DNA of 63,992 nt, filler included, from Collodictyon triciliatum (lineage: Eukaryota): NCBI GenBank assembly GCA_043381765.1. It is 28 parts of 28 records of this genome, joined end to end, with 100 filler letters (N's around TTAATTAATTAA, not from the genome) between each part and the next. Parts side by side here need not be neighbours in the genome. Positions count along the whole stretch, not along the records: positions 27,515 to 29,793 come from JBHJMP010009336.1; 27 more parts are not named here. One strand, 5' to 3'. The notes under the pieces were generated by a model. It was not told the origin of the DNA, searched no databases, and worked only from the letters and a program-made list of their open reading frames with translations. This document shows, in pieces, positions 12,465 through 61,019 of this stretch (its first letter is position 1; each line of letters starts with the position of its first letter). Both the position numbers and the translations under genes were made by a program.

Positions 12465-13480
12465 TTAAACAGAAGAAGCGTGGTGGTAGTGATGGCGAGT
12501 TCTGGATTCCAGTGTATGAAGTTGCCTGAGCTTGATATAGAAGAACCATACCGAACCGATGATATTTGTTATCATGCCAGCAACAGCCCAGTGGTGGAAA
12601 TCTGAGATTGTAGGCAGGACAAGTTCGCTCATCACTAAGGCGAATACATGCTTTGCGTTTCCGATTGCAGACGTGGTTAGAGGGGAGTTGATATGGGTGC
12701 ACAGGAAGATCGCCACATTCAAGCCAAACCCCAGCAACAAGCACATGAAGAAAATGGCGAGAAAAGTCTTGTCATTCATCAAGGGCGATTGCAGGACAGA
12801 ACCAAACTCCATAAAAATAGCAGCCAGGAGGAAAGAGAGTGGCAGTGATATAATGCTGTTCATCCATAAGAGAGTAAGTGGGCTGACGCTCATAGAGAAG
12901 GTAAGTCTTCGGATAAGGACAAAATATAGCGCCGTTGTTAGGTCATTCAGGAGACCCAAGACAACCCCGCTGAAATCCAGTGAGGAGTGGCTCAGTTCCA
13001 TAAGAGCAGAGCCAACCACCATAAGGACAACAGACCTCCATACGGAAGGGCCATACGTTCGGTTGAGTACGTGTTCCTCTAGATTCACATAGGGGTGAGA
13101 TATATGAAATCCTTTTTTTCTTCTTCATTTGTTATCTTCTAATTTTTATTTCAATTACTGATCCTTTTCAACACGATATATAAAAGTGGACAAGGCATGA
13201 CTGAATAAGTGAAGCCTATAAAAGACATACAAGTGTACTTTTGTCTTCTAATAAATAAAAAAATGTAAACCTAAATAGATTACAAAGATGGAAGTGAATC
13301 GACGAGCAACAATGAATGATGATATTGTTATGCTGGATAAGCTTGCGATACCGAAAATTATGTTAACCAGAAAACAGAGGGAAAGAGGAAGTACCTATGA
13401 ATATTTTAACATAATTGCGATATCCGAAGCATTTAAGATAAAATATAGGTTCATCTTTTAAGAAAGGACGTGCCTTTATA
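12465..13480 (-). CDS. Nucleotide-sugar transporter (SLC35D/TPT family, DMT superfamily), 5'-partial
   Basis: Multi-TM protein with ..FIVARRFTSIF.., TALYFVLIRR and FLCTHINSPLTTSAIGNAK motifs. Confidence 0.82.
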
Positions 13481-18166: not shown

Positions 18167-20661
18167 NNNNNNNNNNNNNNNNTTTTTTTTTTTTTTTTTG
18201 TTTTTTTTGTTTTTTTTGGTTTTTTGTTTTTTTGTTTTTTTGTTTTTTTGTTTTTTTGTTTTTTTGTTTTTTTGNNNNNNNNNNNNNNNNNNNNNNNNNN
18301 NNNNNNNNNNNNNNNNNNTTAATTAATTAANNNNNNNNNNNNNNNNNNNNNNNNNNNNNNNNNNNNNNNNNNNNAGAATGAAGTTTGATTGATAATCTGC
18401 TAAAAATTAGGCTTTACACATGTACTTAAAATGTGCGTATTTGGTTTTTCTACCGTTGAATATCAAACATGTGACGAATTTTCTGTGATACATATTTAAA
18501 ATTTTTCGTGCTTTTCACTTATGAAAAGAATCAGAAGGGAAAATTAGACAAGAATCATACTTTTTCACTGTCAGAATCTTGGTCAATCTGGCCCAAAGAT
18601 TACACTATTCTTTGTAATGCCCTCAAAGTTTTAATTACGAGTTTCATTAATTGTTGTAAAAAATTAGATTCATGGTACTTGAAACCTTCAGATAAATAAA
18701 TTTCTTTTCGATGCTATGAATTGGCTTTTGGTCAACTTACTGTATGACTTGTTTATCACCAAAAAAATGAGGATGAAGAGTCCTTGTAAGATGAAATAGG
18801 TGACAGATGGCCCTTTCTGAAAGTTCATCAAGTGCTATGATAAATGGTTTTTTTTGAGTTCATCCTGAGAAATAATCAAAATTTAAGAGTTGAAAATTTT
18901 GTCCTGGTCTTCCTCATGCAAGCACAAGACCCAGGCTACAGGCCAAACTGCAGGATGCAATTCCTGATTACCGACTACTTCTCCTGCCACCCAGCCACCA
19001 AGTAGCGTCCATGCAAACGATGGCTAGCGAACCAAAGCCAACATTTCCACCGTCCTGCACAAAATGGAATGGAATAATAAAAAAAAAGTCGAAAATATTG
19101 TATTGATTGTATAGATTTTTTTTGTATCAATGAAGCCCCCTTTAATATCGTTGAAATTAACTCATGATTGATTTTATCCAACTTGACTATTTTAATTCAT
19201 ACATTATTCAATATCATCTACGCCTTATGAAATGTAAGGGTAAAAATTAACTAGGATAGCAAAGTATCAGAATCTACCGTTTATTTGGAATCATAAAAAT
19301 ACATGTAGAGGTAATTCCCAAAAATGTGTCATACCTGAATCTGGTTGATTAAAGTATGATTTTGAGATTCAAAGAGTCAAGTTGAATGGACGACGGTCTT
19401 CAGCCTATTAGAATGGATAATTCATTATTTATGTTTCCAAAATTTTGAGTAATACTGTAGTTGCTAATTCAAAAAAAATAAAGGTATGTTTCTTCGGAGT
19501 CTGCAAAAATAATTATACAATATTCTTGCCGGTTCCGCCAATGCCTAAGCTGAGGAAGTTATGCTGGTTTGTCGGCTGTTATATGCTATCCCTTGAATAC
19601 TAGACATACATAAGTCAAGAATATTGGATTTGTAGTCGAATAGAATGAACGAATATAAAGGAATCTGATCGGAAAGGAGAGCAGGGTAGTCGCGTGGACT
19701 TTCGCCCCAGGGAGAATTTGGCCTCCGATCAAATTGAAGTCAGAGTCCTTGGCAATCGCACCTCTTAAAGGCTGCAACTATTCTCGACCCTGTCGGTTGC
19801 ATATTGATGAGCCACAAATCAAGATTCCATACGCTGCTGGCCCGAACTTCTTAACCGACACGTGCCACTGCTTTCAACCAACATGCAACAACTACGGCGT
19901 CCTGTAAAATTTCTTAAAAACCCCTTCATTCACTTGTATCGAATAAAGGAAAATATGTATAAATGAGGGAATTATTTTTTTCCACCAATAGGCGAATCCC
20001 ATGAAAAAGGTCGAGTTGAGAAGAGAAAAGCAAACAGATCAAAAACCAACCTGAAAGCAAATCCAATATCTAAGAGACGTTCTTGAAGTCTACGTTTGAA
20101 GTATCTCCATCGAAGTGATCTTACTGTGGGCAGAGCAACCAGAGATTCAATCACCCCGAAGCTCTAGAAAGCATCACAAACTGCATGAGATTGAAATATA
20201 ATTCACTTAAAATTCTTAGAAACCGCAAAATGAATAGTCAGCTAAAGCTTCAAAAAAATAAAAATAGAATCAAGGATATTTCATATAGTGTGTATGCGTG
20301 GCCAACAATGTTTTGCAACAGAAAGGCTCGGAAATCCGGAATAGTCCCAGCTCTCCTTGGCTTTCGAATTGTTGTAATGATAAGGGCCCTAAAACCTTTG
20401 CAGGAAGGAGTAATAGTTGAATTTAATGTTATTTGGGTATGTAGATAAGTTTTCATGTGTTTTGAGTTTTGAGTTTTGAGTTTTGAGTTTTGAGTTTTGA
20501 GTTTTGAGTTTTGAGTTTTGAGTTTTGAGTTTTGAGTTTTGAGTTTTGAGTTTTGTGTTTTNNNNNNNNNNNNNNNNNNNNNNNNNNNNNNNNNNNNNNN
20601 NNNNNTTAATTAATTAANNNNNNNNNNNNNNNNNNNNNNNNNNNNNNNNNNNNNNNNNNNN

Positions 20662-20771: not shown

Positions 20772-21560
20772 CCCAATTTTGTCATGAACAGGCTTAGAAT
20801 ATGTTCCATCAGAGCTGACCTGGAAAAAAAAAAAAGGAATCAGCTTTAGAATAAATATACGCAATAATGCGGTTAGTCTATTAACTTCTTTTAGGAAGAA
20901 AAAAGCAACATGTTTATTTCGATGCAAATTTTCGATTGAAAAAAAAAATTACCTGGGCATATCGACAGAGAAGCTGTTCACGAGGAATTCGAACATTGTT
21001 GAAACGACAGAATCCATTATCGGCCATGGTAAATCCTGATATATATAAACATCAAAGGTTTGTTTGAATATTCTAATATGGATTGATTTGAAGTAAATGT
21101 GTTTTGAGGTCGGTTAAAGGTATGGATATATGGACCTTGTACGCGTGGCTACATGAAGAAAAATCCTACCAAATTTTGGTCCAATATCACCGACCGTAAC
21201 TCCTGGGAGAGGCTGGTGGTCCTCCAGGGATCTTAGCTGCACAAAGAAAGTGTGGATGCCGTAGTCCTTGAAGGATGACAAAAGGAGAGATGAAAAGGAA
21301 GAGGTTTTGTCAGACGTTCAATAGCGTGTGTGTGCCTGAAATAAATTTGCTTTTGTTTTGGTGATACCTTATTATACACGAAATAAAATGATGTATTGTT
21401 CAAACCTTTCCATCGATAATCAGGCGGCAGTGAGCGACACAGTGCGTAGCGATGTTGCCAACTGTTTTTCATTAATTATGAATAGAGCAGCCTCATGAAG
21501 GCAGAGGAGATATCATGGTATGAGTATACAATTATCACAGATAAAACAATATAGATGATG

Positions 21561-21594
<34 letters not shown>

Positions 21595-22625
21595 TAATAA
21601 TATGTGTGGATAATAAATAATTAAGCAAGTAAAATATACGTCCTCCTGGCCACCATTTGGTTGCAGTAATTGTGGGGCTATTGATGACAAACTCTTGAGT
21701 TGTTTTGTCATACGTTGCTGTTGTTTCCAATGCTCGAACTGCGTGTGTGTTAAAGCTTGTGAGTGAGATTTTTCTGCTGGCAAATAACAAAATAAAAATA
21801 GACATGAATATAGTATGAAACCGTCCACATGTAGTTCGGGTAGATATGGAGGAGTGAGTTTGGGGAAAAGACGCACCGTTTGATCCATGGCCCATTTCGG
21901 TTTGAGCATAGCAGCCAATTATCTGCATGGTCATTGCTAGAGGAAGCCATTTCTCACGCTGTTCATCAGAAGATTGCCCAAACAAGGTCGGCAGAAACAT
22001 ACCGAAGTGCAAATCGACAGGAAGGACTTCATCAATTTCTTGCTGTTGGATTGTTCGTTTTGATGATTTGCGTTAATGGTGGATGTGAATGCAAGAATTT
22101 TTATTTTGGTGAATTATTTTTGACTTAATTTTCAAAGTGTAATCTTATGGAAACGATTATTTCAGGAGATGGCGTTGGATTTAAACAATCGATTCACGTA
22201 ATGATGAGAATATTTGTCAGAGTAAAACTGGTTATTTAAATGAAGAGTCTGACCTTGTACCACGATCTTTCCTCCTCATTGAGAGAGTTTTCGTGGGCAA
22301 CCTCCACCATTCGAAGAGCCTTTTCTGCAGCTCGTGCATATCTGAATCATAATAAGCAGTTTGATTATCATAAGGAAATAGGTCGAGTAGCGACACGGAC
22401 AAACAAACACCTTTCTTTTTTTCTCTCTCTTCTTTTGGTACATAACCGCTCAATTAGGGTGATATAGTCACGTCTCTGTGTTCAGTTTGTAATCATGCAG
22501 GGAGTCAACAAATATCATGAATGGTGACACTAGAAGAGACAAACCTGTCAGGTCGGCTAAGAAAGTCGCGGTCTTTTCTAAATACAGGATCATCCTGGAC
22601 AATCTTGCATACTTCATCACGACGA
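20772..22625 (-). CDS. ACOX1: Peroxisomal acyl-CoA oxidase (ACOX1-like), internal fragment
   Basis: DDPVF..LSR | ..[23 protein letters not shown] | [28 protein letters not shown] | ..[30 protein letters not shown] | [15 protein letters not shown]. Confidence 0.95.
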
Positions 22626-25402: not shown

Positions 25403-27412
<2,010 letters not shown>

Positions 27413-27514
27413 AANNNNNNNNNNNNNNNNNNNNNNNNNNNNNNNNNNNNNNNNNNNNTTAATTAATTAANNNNNNNNNNNNNNNNNNNNNNNNNNNNNN
27501 NNNNNNNNNNNNNN

Positions 27515-29793
27515 GTTTTCAATTGTGATGCCAACCGAAATATGGAGGCTAGGAAAACCGGGAGCCAATACGAACTCCTTGTTCAGCTTTACGAAGTACT
27601 TGGTGGTGACAATTGGCATTTGACCGCTGGATGGAAGGAGAAAAACAGCCCAGTTTGTGCGTGGTATGGAATATACTGTTTTTGGGCTTGCCCCTATGAG
27701 CTACACAAGGTAATTATTCAGATATGATAAATTTATCTTGATCTATTCTAACATCTTAACTCTTAAAGGACAACACATGTCCTATCTTGGGAATCAGCAT
27801 ACCAGGAAACAATCTTCATGGTGACATCGAGGCTGCCTCTGCAATTTTTGAGAGACTCTCTTTTTTATCTGGCTTGGACTTGAGTGACAACAACATTTAC
27901 GGGAATCTTGCAGACTTTAATTTTCCTACTATGTCATATTTAAACCTTGGAAAAAATCCAATTACTGGAAAAATTCCAGACTTTCAAAGGATGCCAATTA
28001 TACAGAATCTTTGGATTTACGAATCCAAAGTCTATGGTAAAGGCTAATCATTTCGAATATATGCATATGAAATACTGTATAAATTTTATCATAGGAGCGG
28101 TTCCCAATTTCAGCGGGATTCCACAAATTGAAGGAATTTATCTTCACTATAATCAATTGGAAGGTGAGTTTGTAATTTCGCTTCACACAGAATTGATAGG
28201 TACTAACTTTATTTTAGGAACTGTTCCAAATCTCAGCTTTATCCCATTTGTAAAAGAAATATATCTTGACTACAATCAATTGACGGGTAAATTTGTATTT
28301 ATTACTGCATAAGAAACGTTCATAGAGACTAACTTTATATCACAGGAACCGTCCCAAATTTCAGTGGAATTTCGGATGTTGAAGCTATATCTATTTCTTA
28401 CAATCATTTAGTTGGTAGGTTAAGGAATTTTGTCTTATATAATTATAAAGAAGCTAACATTACATCACAGGAACGATTCCAAACTTCGGTTTCATTCCAT
28501 ATATTTTAGAAATAAGTTTTTCAAACAATCAATTGACAGGTATTCTCTAATATTGAATTATTCTTAATACACAATAATTCAATATAATCTTTATAATCGC
28601 TATATACAAAAATTTAAAAGATTAACTTTTTATCACAGGAGCAGTTACAAACTTTGACAGTGTTCCCTATGTAGAAATAATTTCTCTTGGAGATAATTAT
28701 TTAAATGGTGATATCTTTTCGTTTATATCGTATCGTGTATAAAATTAACTTTTTAATTGCAGGAACAATTCCAAATTTCACTGCAATTCCAAATGTTTTA
28801 GAGATTGATATTAGCGGTAATCAACTGGCAGGTAAACTTTGTAATTTTACAATACAAACGTTCCTAGATACTCACTGAAGATCGCAGGAATGGTTCCAAA
28901 TTTTAGTTTCATTCCGAATGTTGAAGAAATTTATCTACCGAACAATCAACTGACAGGTAGGTATCGATTATTGTATGTTCCGTGATTGATGGATTAATAA
29001 AATTTTATACCACAGGAACAATTCCAAACTTTAATGGCATTTCGAAAGTTTATGGAATTTCCCTTTTCAAAAATCAGCTGATAGGTGAATTTTGATGATT
29101 TCGTCCACTACGATTGATGAATTAACACCTTTTTATCTCACAGGAACGGTTCCAGACTTCGATGGCATTCCAAATCTTAATGTTATTGATCTTGGAACTA
29201 ATAATTTTACCGGTAATATTCAATTTTTCCTGCATGATTAACAGAAATTAACTTTACTTTATAGGAGCAATTCCAAACTTCAGCGGGATTCCAAATATTT
29301 TGCTTATTGACCTCCCTAATAATATGCTTAATGGTAAGTACGAAAATTGATTCATATATGCAGTTGATGTTTTACTAACTGTGTGTCCAGGAACATTACC
29401 AAACTTCAGCGGAATCCGAAATGTTCTGAAGATTTCACTCTCATCCAATCAGTTGAGCGGTTCGCTTTTGATAAGTTGAATAAAAATCAGTATAATTAGT
29501 TTACCAAATTATGATTCATGTATAGGAACAATACCAGATTTCAGTGAACTTTATTACATCGAGACTTTAGACTTTTCTGATAATCGCTTCCATGGTAAAC
29601 AAAAAAAATAAAATACTGAACGTAAAGTCTAGAACAATTAGAACAAGGAAAATAACGGTTAGCTTAAACATGTATCCATTAATTTTATCCTAATTAATAG
29701 GACAAGTCCCAACCTTCCGATATTGCTTAAACTTGAAAGAAATTTCGCTATTCAGAAACATACTGAACGAATCTCTTCCCTCCTTGCATTTGC
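27515..29793 (+). CDS. Extracellular-type leucine-rich-repeat protein with LRRNT cap and one-repeat-per-exon array, partial
   Basis: Cap LYEVLGGDNW..GW..CAWYGIYC, then 12 exons of 69 nt (28095-29594), each encoding GxVPNFxxIPxVxxIxLxxNxLx and bounded by AG/GT. Confidence 0.93.
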
Positions 29794-30068
29794 NNNNNNN
29801 NNNNNNNNNNNNNNNNNNNNNNNNNNNNNNNNNNNNNTTAATTAATTAANNNNNNNNNNNNNNNNNNNNNNNNNNNNNNNNNNNNNNNNNNNNCAAAAGC
29901 ACGAAAAGGAGATGTATAAACGTTGTATTGTAAAAGGACATAGATTGTAGCGAATGCGCATAAGCAGAAAGATGTATGTCAGAGACGATTCGAATTTTTA
30001 TCCCGCCTTAGAAACATAAATGTATACTGAATTTCATTTTTTGCTTTTATTTTTAAGAACAGATTACC

Positions 30069-32064
30069 CTGCATCATAGAGAAAAGAGCGAGCTCAAGCC
30101 TTTCAAGGTCCGATGTCGTGGACGAGTCACAAAAATCTAGACACCCCCAGTAAAATTATCATCAGCGCCCACAGAAGAATGCGCGCAATTAAAATAAATA
30201 TATGTATACATACGAGGAAAATAAAGAAACGCGCGTTCGCACATACCAACGAGCTTGAACAATGAAACAACATCAGCAGGAAGATTCGTATAAGTCTCGG
30301 CCGCTGTAGATGGTGCGTATGTAAAATCAGAGACTTCAGAGGTGTTGCTTATGTTTGCCGATGAAAGCGTGGATAGTTGAATGGGGGATAAACTCATGGA
30401 CACGGGTCTTGATGAGGCTGATGAAATGGCAACTGCTGCAACAGAGTTTGCGCTCATCTCACCATTTACATCTTCTGTTAGTGCTTTTCTTGAAAGCGGA
30501 GATTTTGCTGGAGTTTTTACAGGAGAATCCGTCGGTAGGTCGTGTGGGGCGTCTGCTGTAGATAACCTAGGCAATGGACTCTGCACAGGGCTATCTATTG
30601 ACGTCTGCAAAGGCTCGCTTATCTGCGTCATGTATATCTCCATTAGAATAATCATAATAATAATAATATAAATATAAATAATTTCAATAAATGCATATTT
30701 AATCATCTTTTTAGAAATTGTTTGTATCAAAGAAAAAGATAACCAGACATTAAGGTCGTCAGAAGTTGCCGGCCGGCTGTTTCTTTCTCGTGCAAATTCT
30801 CCCAACATCTTAGTCAGGCTCACCGACGACGCCTTTGTTTGTTCGTTTGGTTCTGATGTCCCTTCATAAAGCGTCTCGATAAGATTACCACCGTCATTAT
30901 ATTCCCCATCACTTTCATCACTTTCATCGTCTTCAAAATTTACATCAATATCGAGTGCCCTCTTTGGGGCATATTCTGCTTCAACCTTTGCTGCTGGGTT
31001 CATGGAGGTGGTTTCTTCAATTGATTCAGTAGAGGTCGGTGCCAATAAATATTTCTCGTTTCCATTGTGGCATTCATTAGAAAACAGTTCTGCTTCGGAC
31101 TCTTCTATTATCTGCTGCACTTTTTCTTCGTCGCTATCTTGGAAATCTTGATCGTTTTCGGAACCAGAGATACTCAGACTTAGAGATATATCCTCATCTT
31201 CGTCCTCATCCTCGTCCTCAGATAATATCTGGTCGATGTCGGGTTCGTCCTCATCATCCTCTGATTCATTCCCGTGAGCTTCATCAACATTAATATGTTT
31301 ACTTTGGAGAGCTTCTTCTTCTTCTTCTTCAATAGCGTCTCGTTGCTCTTCATTGCCATGTATTTCATTGCTTACAAGCAGTATTTCATCGCTACTGTCT
31401 TGAATTTGAGCAAAGGATTGTTCCAAGTCTCTGTGACTGGCTTGGCTTTCGTACTCTTTTCCTAGGTCACTCTCTGCAATTTCGCTATGGTTTTGTTGTG
31501 AATCGGCAGAAAGGTCATCCACAAACGAATCGTCGAGAAATGCCTTTGCCTTTGCTGCGGTAGGCGTCTCTGATGGGGAAGAAACGGGACTCAAAGCAAT
31601 GAGTCTTCCCGAATCAACAACCACAATAGAATCAGCTAGCTCTGTCATGCTGGATTCATCATGGAATAGACCTTCGTCATTCTTTTGCAAGGATGCCTTG
31701 ACCTCTATGTCCACGTCTGACGATGGCGATTCTACCATATTTTGTCCATCAGTTGATGAAAAGATCTCTCCCTTCTGCTCAGATGTGTTTTGCCGCGTCG
31801 GTGTAGCGGGCTCCGTCAATGGTGTTCTATTATCATCAGCTATGGTTGCATCGGCACTGTCGTGGTAAATGCTGCCCCCATCAGACCTATTTTTGTGTAG
31901 TTATTAATCAGTTCATTCGTTCGCCTATTTGTTCTTTTATCAGATATAACACAATGCTCGGCAGTTGTTAGAAACCTGTTTTCTGATATGTCCGAGCCTT
32001 GCTCTTCACTCTCGATCTCAAACTCCTCGTCTGCGGACGGATGTGACTGACGCTGAAGGTACTC
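30069..32064 (-). CDS. Acidic, low-complexity hypothetical protein (spliced fragment)
   Basis: Long D/E/S-rich open frame interrupted by AT-rich GT-AG introns; no recognised domain. Confidence 0.6.
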
Positions 32065-34669: not shown

Positions 34670-36315
34670 TATCATGGCCTGAGCAGTATCATTAACCCGT
34701 ACTATTCTCAGATAATTCAATACGCGGAAGCAGCAGACGAATCTATCCTTCTCTATTTCCAGCAAAGTGCTGCTGGTATCGATGCAGCCACCGAGCTAGT
34801 TATTAACCACGTGAGCTCTATATCAACTTACACAAATCATCACTGTAAAACATACATAATGTCAAAAAATTACTGGTGATTTGGCCACAAGTTTTTTCTC
34901 CTCTAATCAACTGCACTATTCAACCTGTCTGATAAGTGTTACTCTGCTTTCATTTGCTCACACTTATTGCTCGCTTTATCGCGATGTGCACGTAGATTCG
35001 ACGATATTTTGGGGTTATGCAAAAGACAATTAGCAACACCGAGGCGCGCACCACTAACCAAAAATGCGAACTCGATGGTCTCGTATTCAAGGGGAAAGGA
35101 ATTTCTTGTAAATCCATCTCTCTTACACGCGGAAGACGATTAGTGGAGTTCATGCGCTACAGCCAAGCTAAGGTGGCCAATCTGCATGCACATCATACGA
35201 ACGTAATGTGCAAATACATCAATATTGATCGGATAAGATCAATCCTGCCACACATATCTGGCTTGCAAAAGATTTCATCTACCGCGTTGGGTGGCTATGG
35301 AGAAACATGGGCTTTGAGCATAACACGAAGAATCCTCGGCCAGCAGTTGACCAGAGATGAAGAGTCTGTCTCTAATGCTGTGGGTGGGTGGGACCGAAGT
35401 ATCCAGGCCAAACATGGAGCTCTTCTTAACCAGAAACTTATTTCTTCAGCCCAGTCCGCCGAAGGCGACCCGCAGTTCAGAATGTTAAGGGAGCCATTGA
35501 TATCTTTTGAGCTCAACAGACCTGAATCTATCGCATACGACTCTGCTTCCAATCGCATATATATAGCCGACTCATCTAATAATCGAGTCATTGTCCTATC
35601 CGTTTTGGGCGATAGCAATCATATGTTCGACTCTGAATCTGCATTTGAAATTGCTGATGTCTGGACCAATATCCCAACCACAGAAGAGCCTTTTCGCAGT
35701 CCGTATGGTCTAGCTATCAACCAAGATAGACTATTGGTGATTGTTTCATCTGAAATGTCTTGTTATTGCTGCATTCCACTGGGTGATATCCAAGAAACAA
35801 CTATTGTGCACACAATATACACAGATTCTAGGACTGGCCTGGACAATGCACACTACGTTACTTGTGATTCAGAAGGGTGCTTCTACATAACTGATCAAGG
35901 AAATGGAAACATCGTCAAACTGGATAACTCTGGAAAGTTCTTGATGACCTTTCCTTCTGTAAATGCAGAAGGAAGTCGATTGGTTTCCTCGAAACCTCAA
36001 GGAATCGCTGTCACTGATGACGACCACGTTATTGTTCTCGGATATGCAGAAAGCGAGATATACCAGTACTCTACGGATGGCAACTTGCAGAGAACTGTCG
36101 CATTCGAGGGTGTCTCAGGTTCCAACTATGTCTGCCGGGGACCAAGAGGAGGATACATGATTAGCAATTATGGTGGTAGTTGTATCCAGTTCTTTGGTTC
36201 TGATCATAAATTGCTGCATACTGTCAATGTTCGTTCACCAACGGGCATGTGTTGGGGGCTGGATAATTACCTCTATGTCAGTGGGTGGTCTGATAACACG
36301 ATATTTGTGTTCTAA
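34670..36315 (+). CDS. NHL-repeat beta-propeller protein with N-terminal helical region
   Basis: LNRPESIAYD..IYIADSSNNRVIV, FRSPYGLAI, YITDQGN and KPQGIAV repeats in a long last exon; probable upstream exon near 34670-34810. Confidence 0.85.
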
Positions 36316-50534: not shown

Positions 50535-52440
50535 CTGCTGCGCTTGTGGAGCTTTCTTTAGAATATGTGCGCTCCAGACTTCGTCTTAGCTTCTCCAGAT
50601 TTGTTTGGACAACTTCAAGTTCTTCCCAAGTTCTATAAAACTACCTGTTAGCTGTCCTCTTTGTAAACGTTACATTTTGGTCTACTCATTAATGACAAAT
50701 AGCAAATAGCAAATAGAAATGTTACAAAAAAACGATGTAATTGAAGGTAATTGTATGATGGGCATTACTGCTGAAGACGTTTAAGCTCTTGTAACGCACG
50801 CGGATTTCCTCTTCTTGCAGAAGTAGAACTAATTGCGGATACACTTGCGTCTCGACTGCTGGTATCATACTCTTCTGGTCTGGGTTGCCAGGAAGTAGAG
50901 TGATACTGTGGTCGACTCATAATTGGTTGTGTGGGGGCAAAGTCGATACGAGACGAGGGGCGGGGAGGATAATCTACGAGGGGTCTCTTGGTTTCACGAA
51001 CCGTTGTTTGAATATACTTCCGCTTATCTTCATCCTCTGTTGCGCCTCGTTGCATTGCAGAGGTAGCGCTAAGACCATATGATTGATTTGAAGACGTATG
51101 GGCCGACTTGGGCGCAGTTATCCTTGCATGTTGATGTTGGTCTTGTACTTGACGAACGACATGCTGGTGCTGTTTTGGAATAGCTCGTTGGGTGTGCTGC
51201 CCATGATGGGCAGGGGTAGCTTGAGATATCTGTTGCGATATCACTGAGTCATCGTAATAATCCGACTCTTGCTCAGTCTCCATTTCTTCCTCTTGATATT
51301 CATCAGAGTATTCATCGGTGTAATATTGCCCATGTTCATAAGCATAGTCTTCGTCTTCATGATATTCTTCAGAATCACGGTAACCTTGGCGACGAGAAGA
51401 GTGGTATTGGATTTGTTGTGGAGGAGGGGCGTAATCATAATCATAATCATGACCAAAACTCTCTTCTTCGTACTCTTCATAGCGATGGTGGGAGGGATTC
51501 GACTCATACGCTGAAGTGTCATGGAAGCTTTCATATTCGCTAGGCGACTCAGGTGGTCCATAGGCATATGTAGATGGATGAAACGCGACAGGAACAGCAG
51601 TAAAAGTTGATGGATGATGGCGGTAGTGATAAAAAGAAGGTTGTTTTGGCCTCTGGACATATTGTTGCTTGTACACAGCCCTTGGTTGATGAATATTGGT
51701 GCGGTCTGGTCTGTAAAGCTGTCTGTTATGACTGGCCACTTGATAAGGCGGGCGGCTAGATATAGGATGGAATCGAGAAGACGGAGCAGCCCAGACAGCC
51801 TTTGGATGAGAGTGGGGAATACGATTCGGATTCGGACGCTGCTGCGAGTAAGACAAGTGCATTGGTGGGCGGTAATGTGGCGGTACATCAATCCGAGGAT
51901 CCGTTGCAACTTGTGGAATCATGTGATGGGGATGTCTGCGGTCTTGGCGAGCGTTAGAGGGAATCTGCGGAGAGGAGAGAATGGGATAGCCTCGTTAAAA
52001 TATGGCAGTAGGAAATAGAAAAGAGATGTCTACTTTCGTGTAATTCTGAACATTGTCTGAGTTTGCGGTGGTTTGAATTGCAAGGATATTAGAGACAGAA
52101 TAAGAATGAAAAAATTAAAAGAAAGTAGAAAAAATGAGTTTAGTTTCACATATTCACGAGGTCGTTCTGTATATTCCATTCTTTTAGGTGGTGGTCGTCT
52201 TTGATCTCGAAAAGCTGGTGCTCGCGCCTGGCAGGTTGTTTGAGGTTGCGTTGTGATGATTAAAAATATACCCTCGTAATTTTTATGTCATCATGTTTAT
52301 TTTCATCCTTTTGAGTCGAATAAAGCGAATAAAAATATTTCTAATTATCTTAATTGTATTTTATGGTTATTGAAAAACATTACCTCGGCAGTGGTGTGCT
52401 TTTGTCGAGGGTTCATTTCGCGCTCTGGACAGAGTTACAG
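50535..52440 (-). CDS. Low-complexity Pro/Gln/His/Tyr-rich hypothetical protein with C-terminal coiled coil
   Basis: About 1.2-kb open exon plus flanking small exons; no recognised domain. Confidence 0.6.
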
Positions 52441-59912: not shown

Positions 59913-61019
59913 CTAGCTGGCGCTTACGATGAGGATGATTATCACGAGAATAATCAATATCCCCGCTGATGCGACGTTGATTCTACCCCACGTACGGGCA
60001 CCNNNNNNNNNNNNNNNNNNNNNNNNNNNNNNNNNNNNNNNNNNNNNNNNNNNNNNNNNNNNNNNNNNNNNNNNNNNNNNNNNNNNNNNNNNNNNNNNNN
60101 NNNNNNNNNNNNNNNNNNNNNNNNNNNNNNNNNNNNNNNNNNNNNNNNNNNNNNNNNNNNNNNNNNNNNNNNNNNNNNNNNNNNNNNNNNNNNNNNNNNN
60201 NNNNNNNNNNNNNNNNNNNNNNNNNNNNNNNNNNNNNNNNNNNNNNNNNNNNNNNNNNNNNNNNNNNNNNNNNNNNNNNNNNNNNNNNNNNNNNNNNNNN
60301 NNNNNNNNNNNNNNNNNNNNNNNNNNNNNNNNNNNNNNNNNNNNNNNNNNNNNNNNNNNNNNNNNNNNNNNNNNNNNNNNNNNGGCAAAGTGTTTACGGT
60401 GTAGCATATACGACTGGTTGAGCAGTGGTAATGACAATGCCTGTAGGTTGTGTTTGCTGGTAATACACTTCGTTAGGGTTGTAAGGAGCAGCATATTGCG
60501 CTTGTGGGTATTGTGCCTGGGGATATTGTGCCTGAGGATATTGTGGGGGCATGGCACTTGGGTCCGCGCTCATCTGGGGTGGATACGGGTAGTAGGGAGC
60601 TCCATATTGGGCGGGTGGGTACGCTGCTTGAGCATAGACTACGGGCTGCTGTGCTGGATATGCTGCTTGACCGTAAGGATTGTATGGCTGCTGTCCGTCA
60701 GGAAACTGGCCTGGTTATTAATGAAGTCGTTTGAAGGGTGGTTTGCTTTTTATATGGGTTTCTGTGGTTTTGCTTTTGCTTTTGCTTTAATTTTCTTTTG
60801 TTTTCTCTTTTCTTCTTTTCTTCTTCTTTTCTTCTTTTGTTTTGTTTTGTTTTGTTTTCTCTTCTTCTTTTCTTTTCTTTTCTCTTTTCTTTTCTTTTCT
60901 CTTTTCTTTTCTTTTTTCTTTTCTTTTTTCTTTTCTTTTCTATTTTTTTCTTTTTTCTTTTCTTTCTTTTGTTTAGAATTACCGTAAGGAGTGTTAGGAG
61001 CTTCATCATTCTGACCCAT
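59913..61019 (-). CDS. Pro/Gln/Tyr-rich N-terminus plus C-terminal TM; dispanin/CD225-like (core lies in an N gap)
   Basis: MGQNDEAPNTPY | GQFPDGQQPY..PQYPQAQYPQAQY.. | gap 60003-60383 | GARTWGRINVASAGILIILVIIILIVSAS*. Confidence 0.5.

What the first reader, a model, noticed from the sequence alone, without database searches (positions are those of the whole stretch)
28095..29594. LRR gene built from twelve interchangeable 69-nt, phase-1 exon cassettes with variable binding faces
Seen: exons start at about 28095, 28218, 28346, 28471, 28639, 28763, 28888, 29016, 29144, 29265, 29391 and 29526. Each is 69 nt (one 23-aa LRR) and splits a Gly codon at both ends, so any exon can be skipped, duplicated or swapped in frame. 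The scaffold GxVPNFxxIP is conserved while exposed strand positions differ in every unit: EGIYLHYN, KEIYLDYN, EAISISYN, LEISFSNN, EIISLGDN, LEIDISGN, EEIYLPNN, YGISLFKN, NVIDLGTN, LLIDLPNN, LKISLSSN, ETLDFSDN. Known: one-LRR-per-exon layouts occur in plant ERECTA-type kinases and brown-algal LRR genes, where exon shuffling was proposed. Inference: a diversifying recognition or immune-type receptor system in this protist.
Basis: partly seen in the sequence, partly recalled or inferred. Interest (0 to 1): 0.75.

Follow-up and report, generated by a model that had tools for sequence, protein, structure and literature searches.

The report
One-repeat-per-exon LRR gene fragment
A gene fragment from an unidentified protist encodes a leucine-rich-repeat protein in which twelve successive 23-residue repeats each have their own 69-base exon; the layout is real, but it looks like an old tandem exon duplication of a kind already known, with no sign here of an active diversifying system.

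Summary
Twelve 69-nt exons sit at the stated coordinates. Each is flanked ag|GA…G|gt, and each is split from its neighbour inside a GGA glycine codon (phase 1). Splicing 15 exons gives an open frame of 452 codons. It aligns collinearly with intronless relatives, which checks the junctions independently.

The gene lies on a 2,279-bp contig (27515-29793) of a window that chains 28 unrelated short contigs. Both gene ends are therefore missing. The protein has an LRRNT_2-type cap, four unsplit LRRs, the 12 cassettes, and at least one more LRR.

Its 23-residue repeat and its cap most resemble giant modular surface proteins of filamentous bacteria (Beggiatoaceae, Chloroflexota). They resemble plant receptors less.

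The "diversifying immune receptor" reading is not supported:
- The exons are only 45-74% identical.
- Synonymous sites are near saturation, and intron interiors are unalignable.
- There are no pseudo-exons and no other copy in the window.
- The variable positions are those that vary in bacterial relatives too.

The same layout is published for brown algae, Tetrahymena and vertebrates. Verdict: a new member of a known kind, of modest interest.

The parts
27515..29793 (+). The 2,279-bp contig that holds the gene fragment; N/TTAATTAATTAA spacers lie on both sides
27542..27709 (+). Exon 1 (168 nt from the first ATG; the frame is open back to the contig start at 27515): LRR N-terminal cap with the CxWxGIxC motif. 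It has no signal-peptide-like start, so the true 5' end is probably missing
   Evidence: Pfam LRRNT_2 at 21.8 bits against a cut-off of 20.7; 942 library proteins at E<=0.001; frame
27710..27768 (+). Intron 1, 59 nt, GT..AG, phase 0
27769..28036 (+). Exon 2, 268 nt: four LRRs of irregular length (22-27 aa) with no intron at their Gly codons
28037..28094 (+). Intron 2, 58 nt, the first of 13 phase-1 introns inside a G|GA Gly codon
28095..28163 (+). Cassette 1, 69 nt, GAVPNFSGIPQIEGIYLHYNQLE
28164..28217 (+). Intron 3, 54 nt, phase 1. It is in frame and stop-free, so retention would add 18 aa
28218..28286 (+). Cassette 2, 69 nt
28287..28345 (+). Intron 4, 59 nt, phase 1
28346..28414 (+). Cassette 3, 69 nt
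28415..28470 (+). Intron 5, 56 nt, phase 1
28471..28539 (+). Cassette 4, 69 nt
28540..28638 (+). Intron 6, 99 nt, phase 1, donor GTATTC
28639..28707 (+). Cassette 5, 69 nt
28708..28762 (+). Intron 7, 55 nt, phase 1
28763..28831 (+). Cassette 6, 69 nt
28832..28887 (+). Intron 8, 56 nt, phase 1
28888..28956 (+). Cassette 7, 69 nt
28957..29015 (+). Intron 9, 59 nt, phase 1
29016..29084 (+). Cassette 8, 69 nt
29085..29143 (+). Intron 10, 59 nt, phase 1
29144..29212 (+). Cassette 9, 69 nt
29213..29264 (+). Intron 11, 52 nt, phase 1
29265..29333 (+). Cassette 10, 69 nt
29334..29390 (+). Intron 12, 57 nt, phase 1
29391..29459 (+). Cassette 11, 69 nt
29460..29525 (+). Intron 13, 66 nt, phase 1, weakest donor (GTTCGC)
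29526..29594 (+). Cassette 12, 69 nt, the most divergent (45-62% nt identity to the others)
29595..29700 (+). Intron 14, 106 nt, phase 1
29701..29793 (+). Last exon seen, 93 nt and open at the contig end. It begins with the same split Gly (GQVPTF...) but has no donor after 69 nt; the next unit has E where the others have G

Best explanation
This is the middle part of a real, intron-rich eukaryotic gene for a leucine-rich-repeat protein, cut at both ends by a 2.3-kb contig. The protein has an LRRNT_2-type cap followed by at least 17 LRRs. Twelve of these form a run of 23-residue units of the type G-x-(V/I)-P-N-F-S-G-I-P-x-V-x-x-I-x-L-x-x-N-Q-L-x. The one-repeat-per-exon layout is best explained by tandem duplication of a single founder unit, consisting of a 69-nt exon plus a short intron lodged in its G|GA glycine codon (period about 125 nt). 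Because the unit is symmetric (phase 1 at both ends, length a multiple of 3), every duplication kept the frame. The duplications are old. Since then the exons have drifted under purifying selection on the LRR scaffold, and the introns have diverged completely apart from their splice signals. The default product is therefore one continuous LRR solenoid with a 23-residue pitch. Its variable residues are the usual solvent-exposed x positions of LxxLxLxxN. It probably acts as a binding surface on a secreted or cell-surface glycoprotein. Shown: the exon-intron anatomy, the open spliced frame, collinearity with intronless relatives, family resemblance, and the age of the repeats. Inferred: the tandem-duplication origin, constitutive splicing, extracellular location and binding function.
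For: Anatomy: 12 of 12 exons are 69 nt and flanked ag|GA...G|gt, and 14 of 14 introns are GT..AG and 52-106 nt long. 13 of 14 introns carry a YTMAY branch-like motif 10-27 nt (nearest copy) from the 3' end. The junction codon is GGA in 12 of 12 cassettes. Reality of the gene: the spliced frame is open over 452 codons, against 0 of 20,000 shuffles. Scaffold codons show pN 0.15 against pS 0.56, and codon-position identities are 0.54 / 0.73 / 0.47. Junction check: the spliced model (built only inside scripts) aligns with intronless proteins. It aligns over aa 8-397 to one module of P0134 (36.5% identity, 392 columns, 19 gaps, E 7e-83). It aligns over aa 160-374, which span 9 exon junctions, to a Thioploca locus with 0 gaps (42.8%), and to Ca. 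Parabeggiatoa loci at 44-46% with 4 gaps. Those bacterial loci are continuous stop-free frames of 378-1,720 aa. Age: nt identity is 45-74% with no offset periodicity. Intron interiors score 4.4 against 4.0 +/- 1.9 for shuffles, and TRF finds no ~125-nt array. Founder-unit origin: the cassettes share I/V at positions 9, 12 and 15 and N at position 5, whereas the bacterial consensus has L, L, L and D, and the unsplit exon-2 LRRs use L and D. Fold: a model of the relative P0289 has strands recurring every 23 residues, with block-mean pLDDT 70-92 and 76-96 in its two LRR arrays. Its best structural and sequence matches are plant LRR receptor ectodomains such as ERL1/2, MIK2, FLS2 and GSO1. Surface location: the cap has conserved Cys residues, and there are 11 N-x-S/T sequons, 7 of them at cassette positions 5-7.
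Against: There are no transcript data, so constitutive splicing is an assumption and exon skipping is not excluded. Three donors are weak or atypical (GTATTC, GTGATA, GTTCGC), and one intron is retainable in frame. No signal peptide, transmembrane segment or C-terminal domain is visible because the contig ends, and the ATG-proximal sequence is not signal-like, so an intracellular protein is not excluded. Only 64 kb of the genome was available, so copy number is unknown. With pS near saturation, neither positive selection nor its absence can be demonstrated. The structure model is of a relative, not of this protein, and its global confidence is moderate (mean pLDDT 73.7, pTM 0.47). Single cassettes are too short for Pfam: 1 of 12 reaches LRR_4, at E 0.063.
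Confidence: 0.65

Rival explanations
1. One reading: the cassettes are an active diversification device. Exon shuffling between many loci, and/or alternative splicing of whole cassettes, generates a repertoire of recognition or immune-type receptors, as proposed for brown-algal ROCO genes.
For: Every cassette is symmetric and in frame. The exon boundary is the same as in the Ectocarpus 'type I LRR exon', which starts at the G of GxxP (PMC3341825). Alternative splicing of such exons is reported in brown algae (PMC11378527) and in human NLRP3 (PMC6642158). The most variable positions (13, 14, 18, 19) lie on the predicted concave face. Some donors are weak.
Against: There are no near-identical exon pairs (maximum 74% nt), no intronic or antisense LRR remnants, and no second locus among the 28 contigs. 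pN is below pS in all site classes. The variability profile is shared with intronless bacterial relatives (rho 0.64). The repeats are less homogeneous than in three of the six intronless relatives compared (47% against 63-64%; the other three 43-51%). The read-through query found no close paralogue or orthologue in the protein collection, which is weak evidence.
Confidence: 0.15
2. Origin by horizontal transfer. This concerns origin and is compatible with the main explanation. A bacterial modular cap+LRR gene of the Beggiatoaceae/Chloroflexota type entered the eukaryote, or the transfer went the other way. The gene then gained an intron in one repeat, and that repeat was amplified.
For: The cap scores 30-37 bits per domain against bacterial-type caps, 22-25.5 against diatom proteins and at most 7.6 against plant RLPs. 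The 23-residue unit with F6-S7-x-x-P10 and N-Q-L-T is the bacterial-type consensus, seen in 175 23-mers against 11 24-mers; plants gave 1,079 24-mers against 103 23-mers. The diatom relative uses mainly 24-mers. The best full-length alignments are to bacterial-type proteins (36-39%), against 26% for the best plant protein. The four 5' LRRs are intronless.
Against: Sampling is biased. The library search was seeded with the cap only, and its top 150 favours multi-cap giants. No eukaryotic genome collection could be searched. The 36-46% identity is largely repeat consensus: cassette-to-bacterial-unit identity is 32-43%, against 47% among the cassettes. No tree was built. Codon usage (GC3 0.34) and 14 introns show long residence in a eukaryote.
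Confidence: 0.15
3. The 13 same-site introns were gained independently in each repeat at a recurrent protosplice site (..G|GA), for example by spreading intron elements, rather than inherited through duplication of one exon-intron unit.
For: All junctions have a G|G context. Intronless relatives show that the ancestral array need not have had introns.
Against: Thirteen gains at the identical codon base with an invariant GGA is unparsimonious. Intron interiors share no sequence, so there is no introner-like family. The four upstream LRRs have Gly codons at the same repeat position but no intron.
Confidence: 0.04
4. Not a functional gene: a decaying pseudogene, or a chance or assembly artefact.
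For: Only a fragment is seen, there is no start with a signal peptide and no stop codon, and one donor is GTTCGC.
Against: The frame is open over 452 codons across 14 splice junctions, against 0 of 20,000 shuffles. There is purifying selection on scaffold codons, and the model is collinear with relatives.
Confidence: 0.03

Closest known systems
Brown-algal 'type I LRR exons' (Ectocarpus ROCO, LRR-kinase and LRR-only loci; Saccharina and others)
   Same: There is one LRR per exon in long tandem runs. The exon starts at the G of GxxP and ends after NxLx (PMC3341825, passages). By my reading of PMC11378527 ('nucleotides 3 to 71 encode...'), the first two exon bases complete a codon begun in the previous exon. 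That is the same 1+2 split as here, although that paper calls it 'phase 2'. The exons are symmetric, so gain or loss stays in frame.
   Different: Those exons are 72 nt (24 aa), against 69 nt (23 aa) here. The brown-algal loci show near-identical exons, intronic and antisense pseudo-exons, reported positive selection and alternative splicing; none of these was found, or none could be tested, here. The partner domains there are ROC-COR or kinase; here they are unknown because the contig ends. An LRRNT_2 cap is present here.
Tetrahymena 90-bp LRR exon arrays
   Same: They are tandem arrays of LRR exons of exactly equal length with one uniform intron phase, interpreted as exon duplication and shuffling (PMC6564038, abstract and passages).
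   Different: Those exons are 90 bp with true phase 2 (2+1 split), and there are thousands of young genes. Here there are 69 nt, phase 1, one locus seen, and old repeats.
Vertebrate LRR exon modularity (NLRP3 171-bp exons; gonadotropin receptors)
   Same: The exon border falls at the same repeat position in every unit, and whole-exon skipping keeps the frame (PMC6642158, passages; gonadotropin receptors are cited in PMC11378527).
   Different: NLR genes have two RI-type LRRs per exon, belong to a different LRR class and encode cytosolic proteins.
Giant modular cap+LRR surface proteins of filamentous bacteria (Ca. Parabeggiatoa, Thioploca, Ca. Thiomargarita, Marithrix, Anaerolineae, Caldilineales and others)
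   Same: They have the same cap type and the same 23-residue unit GxIPDFSxLPxLxxLxLxxNQLT. Alignment to a whole module is collinear at 36-46% identity.
   Different: They are intronless continuous ORFs. Modules are repeated 2-20 times per protein, with PKD, InlB-B-repeat or other bacterial domains. Whether the window's protein is multi-modular cannot be seen.
Plant LRR receptor kinases and receptor-like proteins (plant-specific LRR class; ERECTA family)
   Same: They share the LRRNT_2 cap, the GxIP motif and the solenoid ectodomain fold. ERECTA genes are unusually intron-rich, with 26 introns (PMC6794760, passages).
   Different: Plants use a 24-residue unit. The plant cap is only remotely similar (at most 7.6 bits), and the best whole-model identity is 26%. 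That each ERECTA LRR has its own exon is recalled, not checked here.

Membership tests
Leucine-rich repeat proteins (LRR superfamily) | Tandem units containing LxxLxLxxNxL | tested here: met
   In the 12 cassettes, N20 is present in 12/12, with aliphatic or aromatic residues (V/I/L/F) at positions 12, 15, 17 and 22. The spliced model aligns to proteins that match Pfam LRR_4 and LRR_8 at E down to about 1e-211.
Leucine-rich repeat proteins (LRR superfamily) | A Pfam LRR model above the gathering score on the window's own translation | tested here: inconclusive
   Exon 2 gives LRR_1 at 20.4 bits against a cut-off of 20.6, and LRR_4 at 20.3 against 27. Among single cassettes, 1 of 12 reaches LRR_4, at E 0.063. 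The spliced protein could not be given to the tool.
Plant-specific (PS) LRR class with LRRNT_2 cap | LRRNT_2 N-terminal cap | tested here: met
   PF08263 at E 2.3e-4 and 21.8 bits, against a cut-off of 20.7.
Plant-specific (PS) LRR class with LRRNT_2 cap | 24-residue unit LxxLxLxxNxLxGxIPxxLxxLxx | tested here: not met
   The unit is 23 residues in 12/12 cassettes. Plant hits gave 1,079 24-mers against 103 23-mers by the same rule.
Bacterial-type modular cap + 23-residue LRR proteins | Cap of the type LxxLYxxxxGxxWxxxxGWxxxxxxCxWxGIxC followed by 23-residue GxIPxFSxxPxLxxLxLxxNQLT units | tested here: met
Bacterial-type modular cap + 23-residue LRR proteins | Several cap+LRR modules in one giant protein, with a C-cap (LCxxP...Y..W) and PKD or other bacterial domains | not testable with these tools
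   The contig ends after 452 codons.
Bacterial-type modular cap + 23-residue LRR proteins | Uninterrupted (intronless) coding sequence | tested here: not met
   There are 14 GT-AG introns here; the bacterial loci are stop-free frames.
Exon-per-repeat LRR arrays (brown-algal type I exons as the reference) | One LRR per exon, equal exon length, symmetric phase, exon starting at the G of GxxP | tested here: met
   the definition is taken from PMC3341825.
Exon-per-repeat LRR arrays (brown-algal type I exons as the reference) | 72-nt exon (24 aa) | tested here: not met
   69 nt in 12/12.
Exon-per-repeat LRR arrays (brown-algal type I exons as the reference) | Signs of ongoing shuffling: near-identical exons, intronic or antisense pseudo-exons | tested here: not met
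   Maximum exon identity is 74%. nhmmer at E<=10 finds only the 12 coding exons on either strand.
Exon-per-repeat LRR arrays (brown-algal type I exons as the reference) | Alternative splicing of cassettes; many paralogous loci | not testable with these tools
   There are no RNA data.
ROCO or LRR-kinase receptors | A ROC-COR or kinase domain downstream of the LRRs | not testable with these tools
   The contig ends at 29793.

The most novel reading that the evidence does not exclude
The 69-nt cassette has its intron in the Gly codon before xxP with a 1+2 split. By my reading of the published descriptions, this is the same exon module as the brown-algal 'type I LRR exon'. Here it would occur in a distant, possibly deep-branching (collodictyonid-like) protist, on a protein whose cap and 23-residue repeat are of a type otherwise seen in giant proteins of filamentous bacteria. 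If so, a mobile 'LRR exon' module would be ancient or repeatedly reinvented across eukaryotic supergroups. In this organism it would feed a multi-locus, alternatively spliced recognition repertoire seeded by a bacterial gene.
Probability: 0.08. Interest if true: 0.65.

Novelty: new member of a known kind. Interest (0 to 1): 0.3.

Why it matters
If the fuller genome showed many such loci, this would add another eukaryotic lineage to the few known to build LRR binding domains from interchangeable single-repeat exons (brown algae, Tetrahymena, vertebrate NLRs). The shared exon boundary with brown algae would then bear on whether that module is ancient or convergent. As it stands, the locus is a clean textbook example of repeat expansion by symmetric-exon duplication. 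It also gives a useful contrast between an intron-per-repeat eukaryotic gene and intronless bacterial relatives of the same 23-residue LRR type. It does not by itself reveal a new mechanism.

Tried and rejected
- Tandem Repeats Finder on the contig found only three small unrelated repeats and no ~125-nt array. The repeat is too diverged at the DNA level.
- Protein-collection search with exon 2 (89 aa, longer proteins): 149 proteins passed E<=0.001 of 266 candidates. Wherever a source named one of the 120 listed hits, the organism was a land plant, mostly RLP/RLK-type proteins, at 22-52% identity. There was no close relative.
A contiguous 63-aa read-through of cassette 1, in-frame intron and cassette 2 gave 10 candidates, none significant. 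This is weak evidence for the absence of close relatives.
- The spliced protein could not be given to any search, family or folding tool because joined sequences are not accepted. It was used only in local BLAST inside scripts.
- ESM Atlas searches with exon 2 and exon 1 gave only generic LRR and LRRNT_2 clusters (0.93 and 0.87), with no taxonomic or functional lead.
- Rfam found 0 matches in the window.
- The first genome scan, with P0134 alone, gave 9 pattern matches and none confirmed. The second, with alignment A2, worked.
- A permissive short-intron pattern scan over all 28 contigs was no different from shuffles, so it cannot tie the LRR contig to the other contigs.
- A weak tblastn match at 20304-20426 (-) (E 0.26) is not an LRR array.
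- I looked for block-wise (higher-order) duplication; identity by exon offset is flat at 0.57-0.62.
- The first structure job (P0256, 711 aa) failed on the server. A 453-aa relative was folded instead.
- Literature searches for 69-bp LRR exon arrays and for LRR proteins of Beggiatoaceae listed no paper on either. Only open-access papers and bioRxiv are covered.
- No phylogeny was attempted: the units are 23 aa and the eukaryotic sampling is too thin.
- Organism: the only hint is a cyclin B fragment on another contig, 69% identical to a Diphylleia rotans EukProt protein. That contig has GC3 0.69 and introns of 150-230 nt, against GC3 0.34 and introns of 52-106 nt for the LRR gene. The link is therefore weak and a mixed assembly is not excluded.
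Full report
**Setting.** The 63,992-base window is not one locus. It is 28 contigs of 2,177-2,279 bp joined by N44-TTAATTAATTAA-N44 spacers. The finding lies on contig 27515-29793 (2,279 bp, 33% G+C). Its neighbours in the window are therefore not its neighbours in the genome, and both ends of the gene are cut by the contig.

**Check of the observation.** Each exon is 69 nt, preceded by AG, begins GA, ends G and is followed by GT (12 of 12). The last G of one exon and the GA of the next make a GGA glycine codon, so the intron sits after codon base 1 (phase 1).

A complete model has 15 exons:
- Exon 1, 27542-27709.
- Exon 2, 27769-28036.
- The 12 cassettes.
- A last exon, 29701-29793, that runs off the contig.

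There are 14 GT..AG introns of 52-106 nt. The first is phase 0 and the following 13 are phase 1. The nearest YTMAY branch-like motif lies 10-27 nt from the 3' end in 13 of 14 introns.

The spliced sequence is open for 452 codons. Of 20,000 shuffles of it, 0 are open, and the unspliced region has 19-46 stops per frame. No unspliced ORF over 122 aa exists on either strand. A DNA profile of the exons finds exactly these 12 places in the window (E 1.7e-16 to 1.1e-9) and nothing else at E<=10.

**Independent check of the junctions.** The spliced model was built only inside scripts. It aligns collinearly with intronless relatives:
- aa 8-397 to one module of P0134: 36.5% identity, 392 columns, 19 gaps, E 7e-83.
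- aa 160-374, spanning nine exon junctions, to a Thioploca locus: 42.8% identity with no gap.
- aa 186-418 and 190-397 to Ca. Parabeggiatoa loci: 44-46% identity with 4 gaps.

Those loci are continuous stop-free frames. Splicing as modelled therefore restores an exact 23-residue periodicity.

**What the protein is.** Exon 1 matches Pfam LRRNT_2 just above its cut-off (21.8 against 20.7 bits). Exon 2 holds four LRRs of irregular length that are not interrupted by introns. It scores just under the Pfam LRR cut-offs on its own. Single cassettes are too short for Pfam.

The cassette consensus is GTVPNFSGIPNVExISLSxNQLx, a 23-residue unit.

A full HMMER search of 1.84 billion representatives with exon 1 gave 942 proteins at E<=0.001. 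The best 150 are 703-4,773 residues long and carry the cap 2-20 times. Those with the most cassette-like repeats (P0134, P0149, P0250, P0256 and others) are built of modules: cap, then n x 23-residue GxIPDFSxLPxLxxLxLxxNQLT, then a Cys-containing C-cap, often with PKD domains.

Named members and the 76 GTDB loci fetched (178 of 238 candidate stretches confirmed) fall into three groups:
- Beggiatoaceae: Ca. Parabeggiatoa, Thioploca, Ca. Thiomargarita nelsonii, Marithrix, Halobeggiatoa and Albibeggiatoa.
- Chloroflexota: Anaerolineae, Caldilineales and Chloroflexia.
- A few others.

By one counting rule, nine bacterial-type proteins gave 175 23-mers and 11 24-mers. The 120 plant hits gave 1,079 24-mers and 103 23-mers. 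A diatom relative (Cylindrotheca) uses mainly 24-mers.

The cap scores 30-37 bits per domain against bacterial-type caps, 22-25.5 against diatom proteins and at most 7.6 against plant RLPs.

One caution applies. Cassette-to-bacterial-unit identity (32-43%) is not far below cassette-to-cassette identity (47%). The array-wide 36-46% is therefore largely shared consensus, not proof of close kinship.

A model of the relative P0289 (mean pLDDT 73.7) has block-mean pLDDT of 70-92 and 76-96 in its two LRR arrays. It shows strands every 23 residues. It resembles plant LRR receptor ectodomains by sequence and by fold.

The window's model has 11 N-x-S/T sequons, 7 of them at cassette positions 5-7, and conserved cap cysteines. 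This fits a secreted or surface glycoprotein, but no signal peptide or membrane anchor is visible.

**How the layout most likely arose and works.** Thirteen introns sit at the identical codon base with an invariant GGA, while the four upstream LRRs have none. The cassettes also share residues that differ from the bacterial consensus: I/V at positions 9, 12 and 15, and N at position 5. Together these features point to tandem duplication of one founder exon-plus-intron unit.

The duplications are old:
- Exon pairs are 45-74% identical (mean 60%).
- Adjacent exons are no closer than distant ones, and there is no higher-order period.
- Intron interiors score like shuffled sequence, 4.4 against 4.0 +/- 1.9.
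- TRF sees no array.
- pS is 0.68 overall.

Purifying selection is clear on scaffold codons (pN 0.15 against pS 0.56). At the five concave-face positions pN is 0.59 and pS 0.83. With saturation, that neither shows nor excludes positive selection.

The variability profile along the repeat correlates with that of 175 bacterial-type repeats (rho 0.64, p 0.002). It is therefore the generic LRR pattern. I infer a constitutively spliced gene giving one long LRR solenoid. This step is not shown.

The structural description and the arithmetic of in-frame skipping are right. The step to "a diversifying recognition or immune-type receptor system" has no support in the data available. There are no near-identical exons, no pseudo-exons in introns or on the other strand, and no second locus in the window. 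The array is also less homogeneous than three of the six intronless relatives compared (63-64%). Splice isoforms, copy number and strain variation remain untested.

**Comparison with what is known.** Equal-length, one-repeat exons in LRR genes are published for several groups:
- Ectocarpus and other brown algae have 72-nt 'type I' exons GxxPxxL...NxLx, with shuffling, pseudo-exons and alternative splicing (PMC3341825 and PMC11378527; I read passages).
- Tetrahymena has 90-bp exons with true phase 2 in thousands of genes (PMC6564038; abstract and passages).
- Human NLRs have 171-bp exons, and NLRP3 shows exon-5 skipping (PMC6642158; passages).
- Gonadotropin receptors are cited within PMC11378527.
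- ERECTA genes have 26 introns (PMC6794760; passages). That each ERECTA LRR has its own exon is my recollection and was not checked.

The brown-algal exon begins at the same glycine. By my reading of "nucleotides 3 to 71", it has the same 1+2 codon split. The figures were not available to confirm this.

Two searches for 69-bp LRR exon arrays listed no paper on them.

**Organism.** This is unknown. A cyclin B fragment on another contig is 69% identical to a Diphylleia rotans protein in EukProt. That contig differs in GC3 (0.69 against 0.34) and in intron size, so the link to the LRR contig is weak.

**Verdict.** This is a real and cleanly modular LRR gene fragment. Its origin is best explained by old tandem duplication of a symmetric exon-intron unit. 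It belongs to a 23-residue LRR type otherwise seen mainly in giant bacterial surface proteins. It is a new member of a known kind, of modest interest. The bold reading, an active cassette repertoire, is not excluded but is unsupported.

Noticed in passing
whole window; spacers such as 27415-27514 and 29794-29893: The window is a chain of 28 short contigs (2,177-2,279 bp) joined by N44-TTAATTAATTAA-N44 spacers. Genomic context across the spacers is meaningless. Three contigs also hold internal N gaps (9650-9659, 18167-18182, 60003-60383).
   Followed up: yes
27240-27414: A 12/13-nt tandem repeat (A-rich, CCAAAT-containing) fills the end of the preceding contig.
   Followed up: no
4585-6775, minus strand: This is a cyclin B gene fragment (Pfam Cyclin_N and Cyclin_C). 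Its best match is a Diphylleia rotans EukProt protein at 69% identity. Its introns are 150-230 nt, and one of them is filled with a pentanucleotide (CATCT-like) microsatellite. GC3 is 0.69, far above the LRR gene's 0.34, so either the genome is heterogeneous or the assembly is mixed.
   Followed up: partly
28164-28217: The 54-nt intron after cassette 1 is a multiple of three and free of stops in frame. Intron retention would insert 18 residues without a frameshift. The other three introns whose length is a multiple of three (28540-28638, 29334-29390, 29460-29525) have in-frame stops by my own reading of the sequence; no tool checked this.
   Followed up: partly
loci L001-L076; proteins P0134, P0149, P0250, P0256, P0139, P0296: Filamentous bacteria (Beggiatoaceae, Anaerolineae, Caldilineales and others) carry many giant proteins made of repeated modules: a plant-type LRRNT_2-like cap, a run of 23-residue LRRs and a Cys C-cap, often with PKD domains. 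None of the 10 papers listed in my one literature search on LRR proteins of Beggiatoaceae held the LRR term.
   Followed up: partly
30137-31900 (-), 50765-51994 (-), 997-2031 (+): Long stop-free frames of 587, 409 and 344 aa have no Pfam match at E<=0.001. Other contigs hold an NHL/SGL-repeat frame (34996-36315), an acyl-CoA oxidase N-terminal fragment (21476-22072, -) and a weak EamA-like frame (12465-13124, -).
   Followed up: no
cassette junctions, 28095-29701: The split glycine codon is GGA at all 12 cassette junctions counted and, by my reading, at the junction into the last exon too (13 in all). The invariant Asn (position 20) is AAT in 12 of 12 cassettes, although Asn at position 5 uses AAT and AAC equally. 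Possible explanations are a splice-site or founder effect, or a constraint at the RNA level.
   Followed up: no
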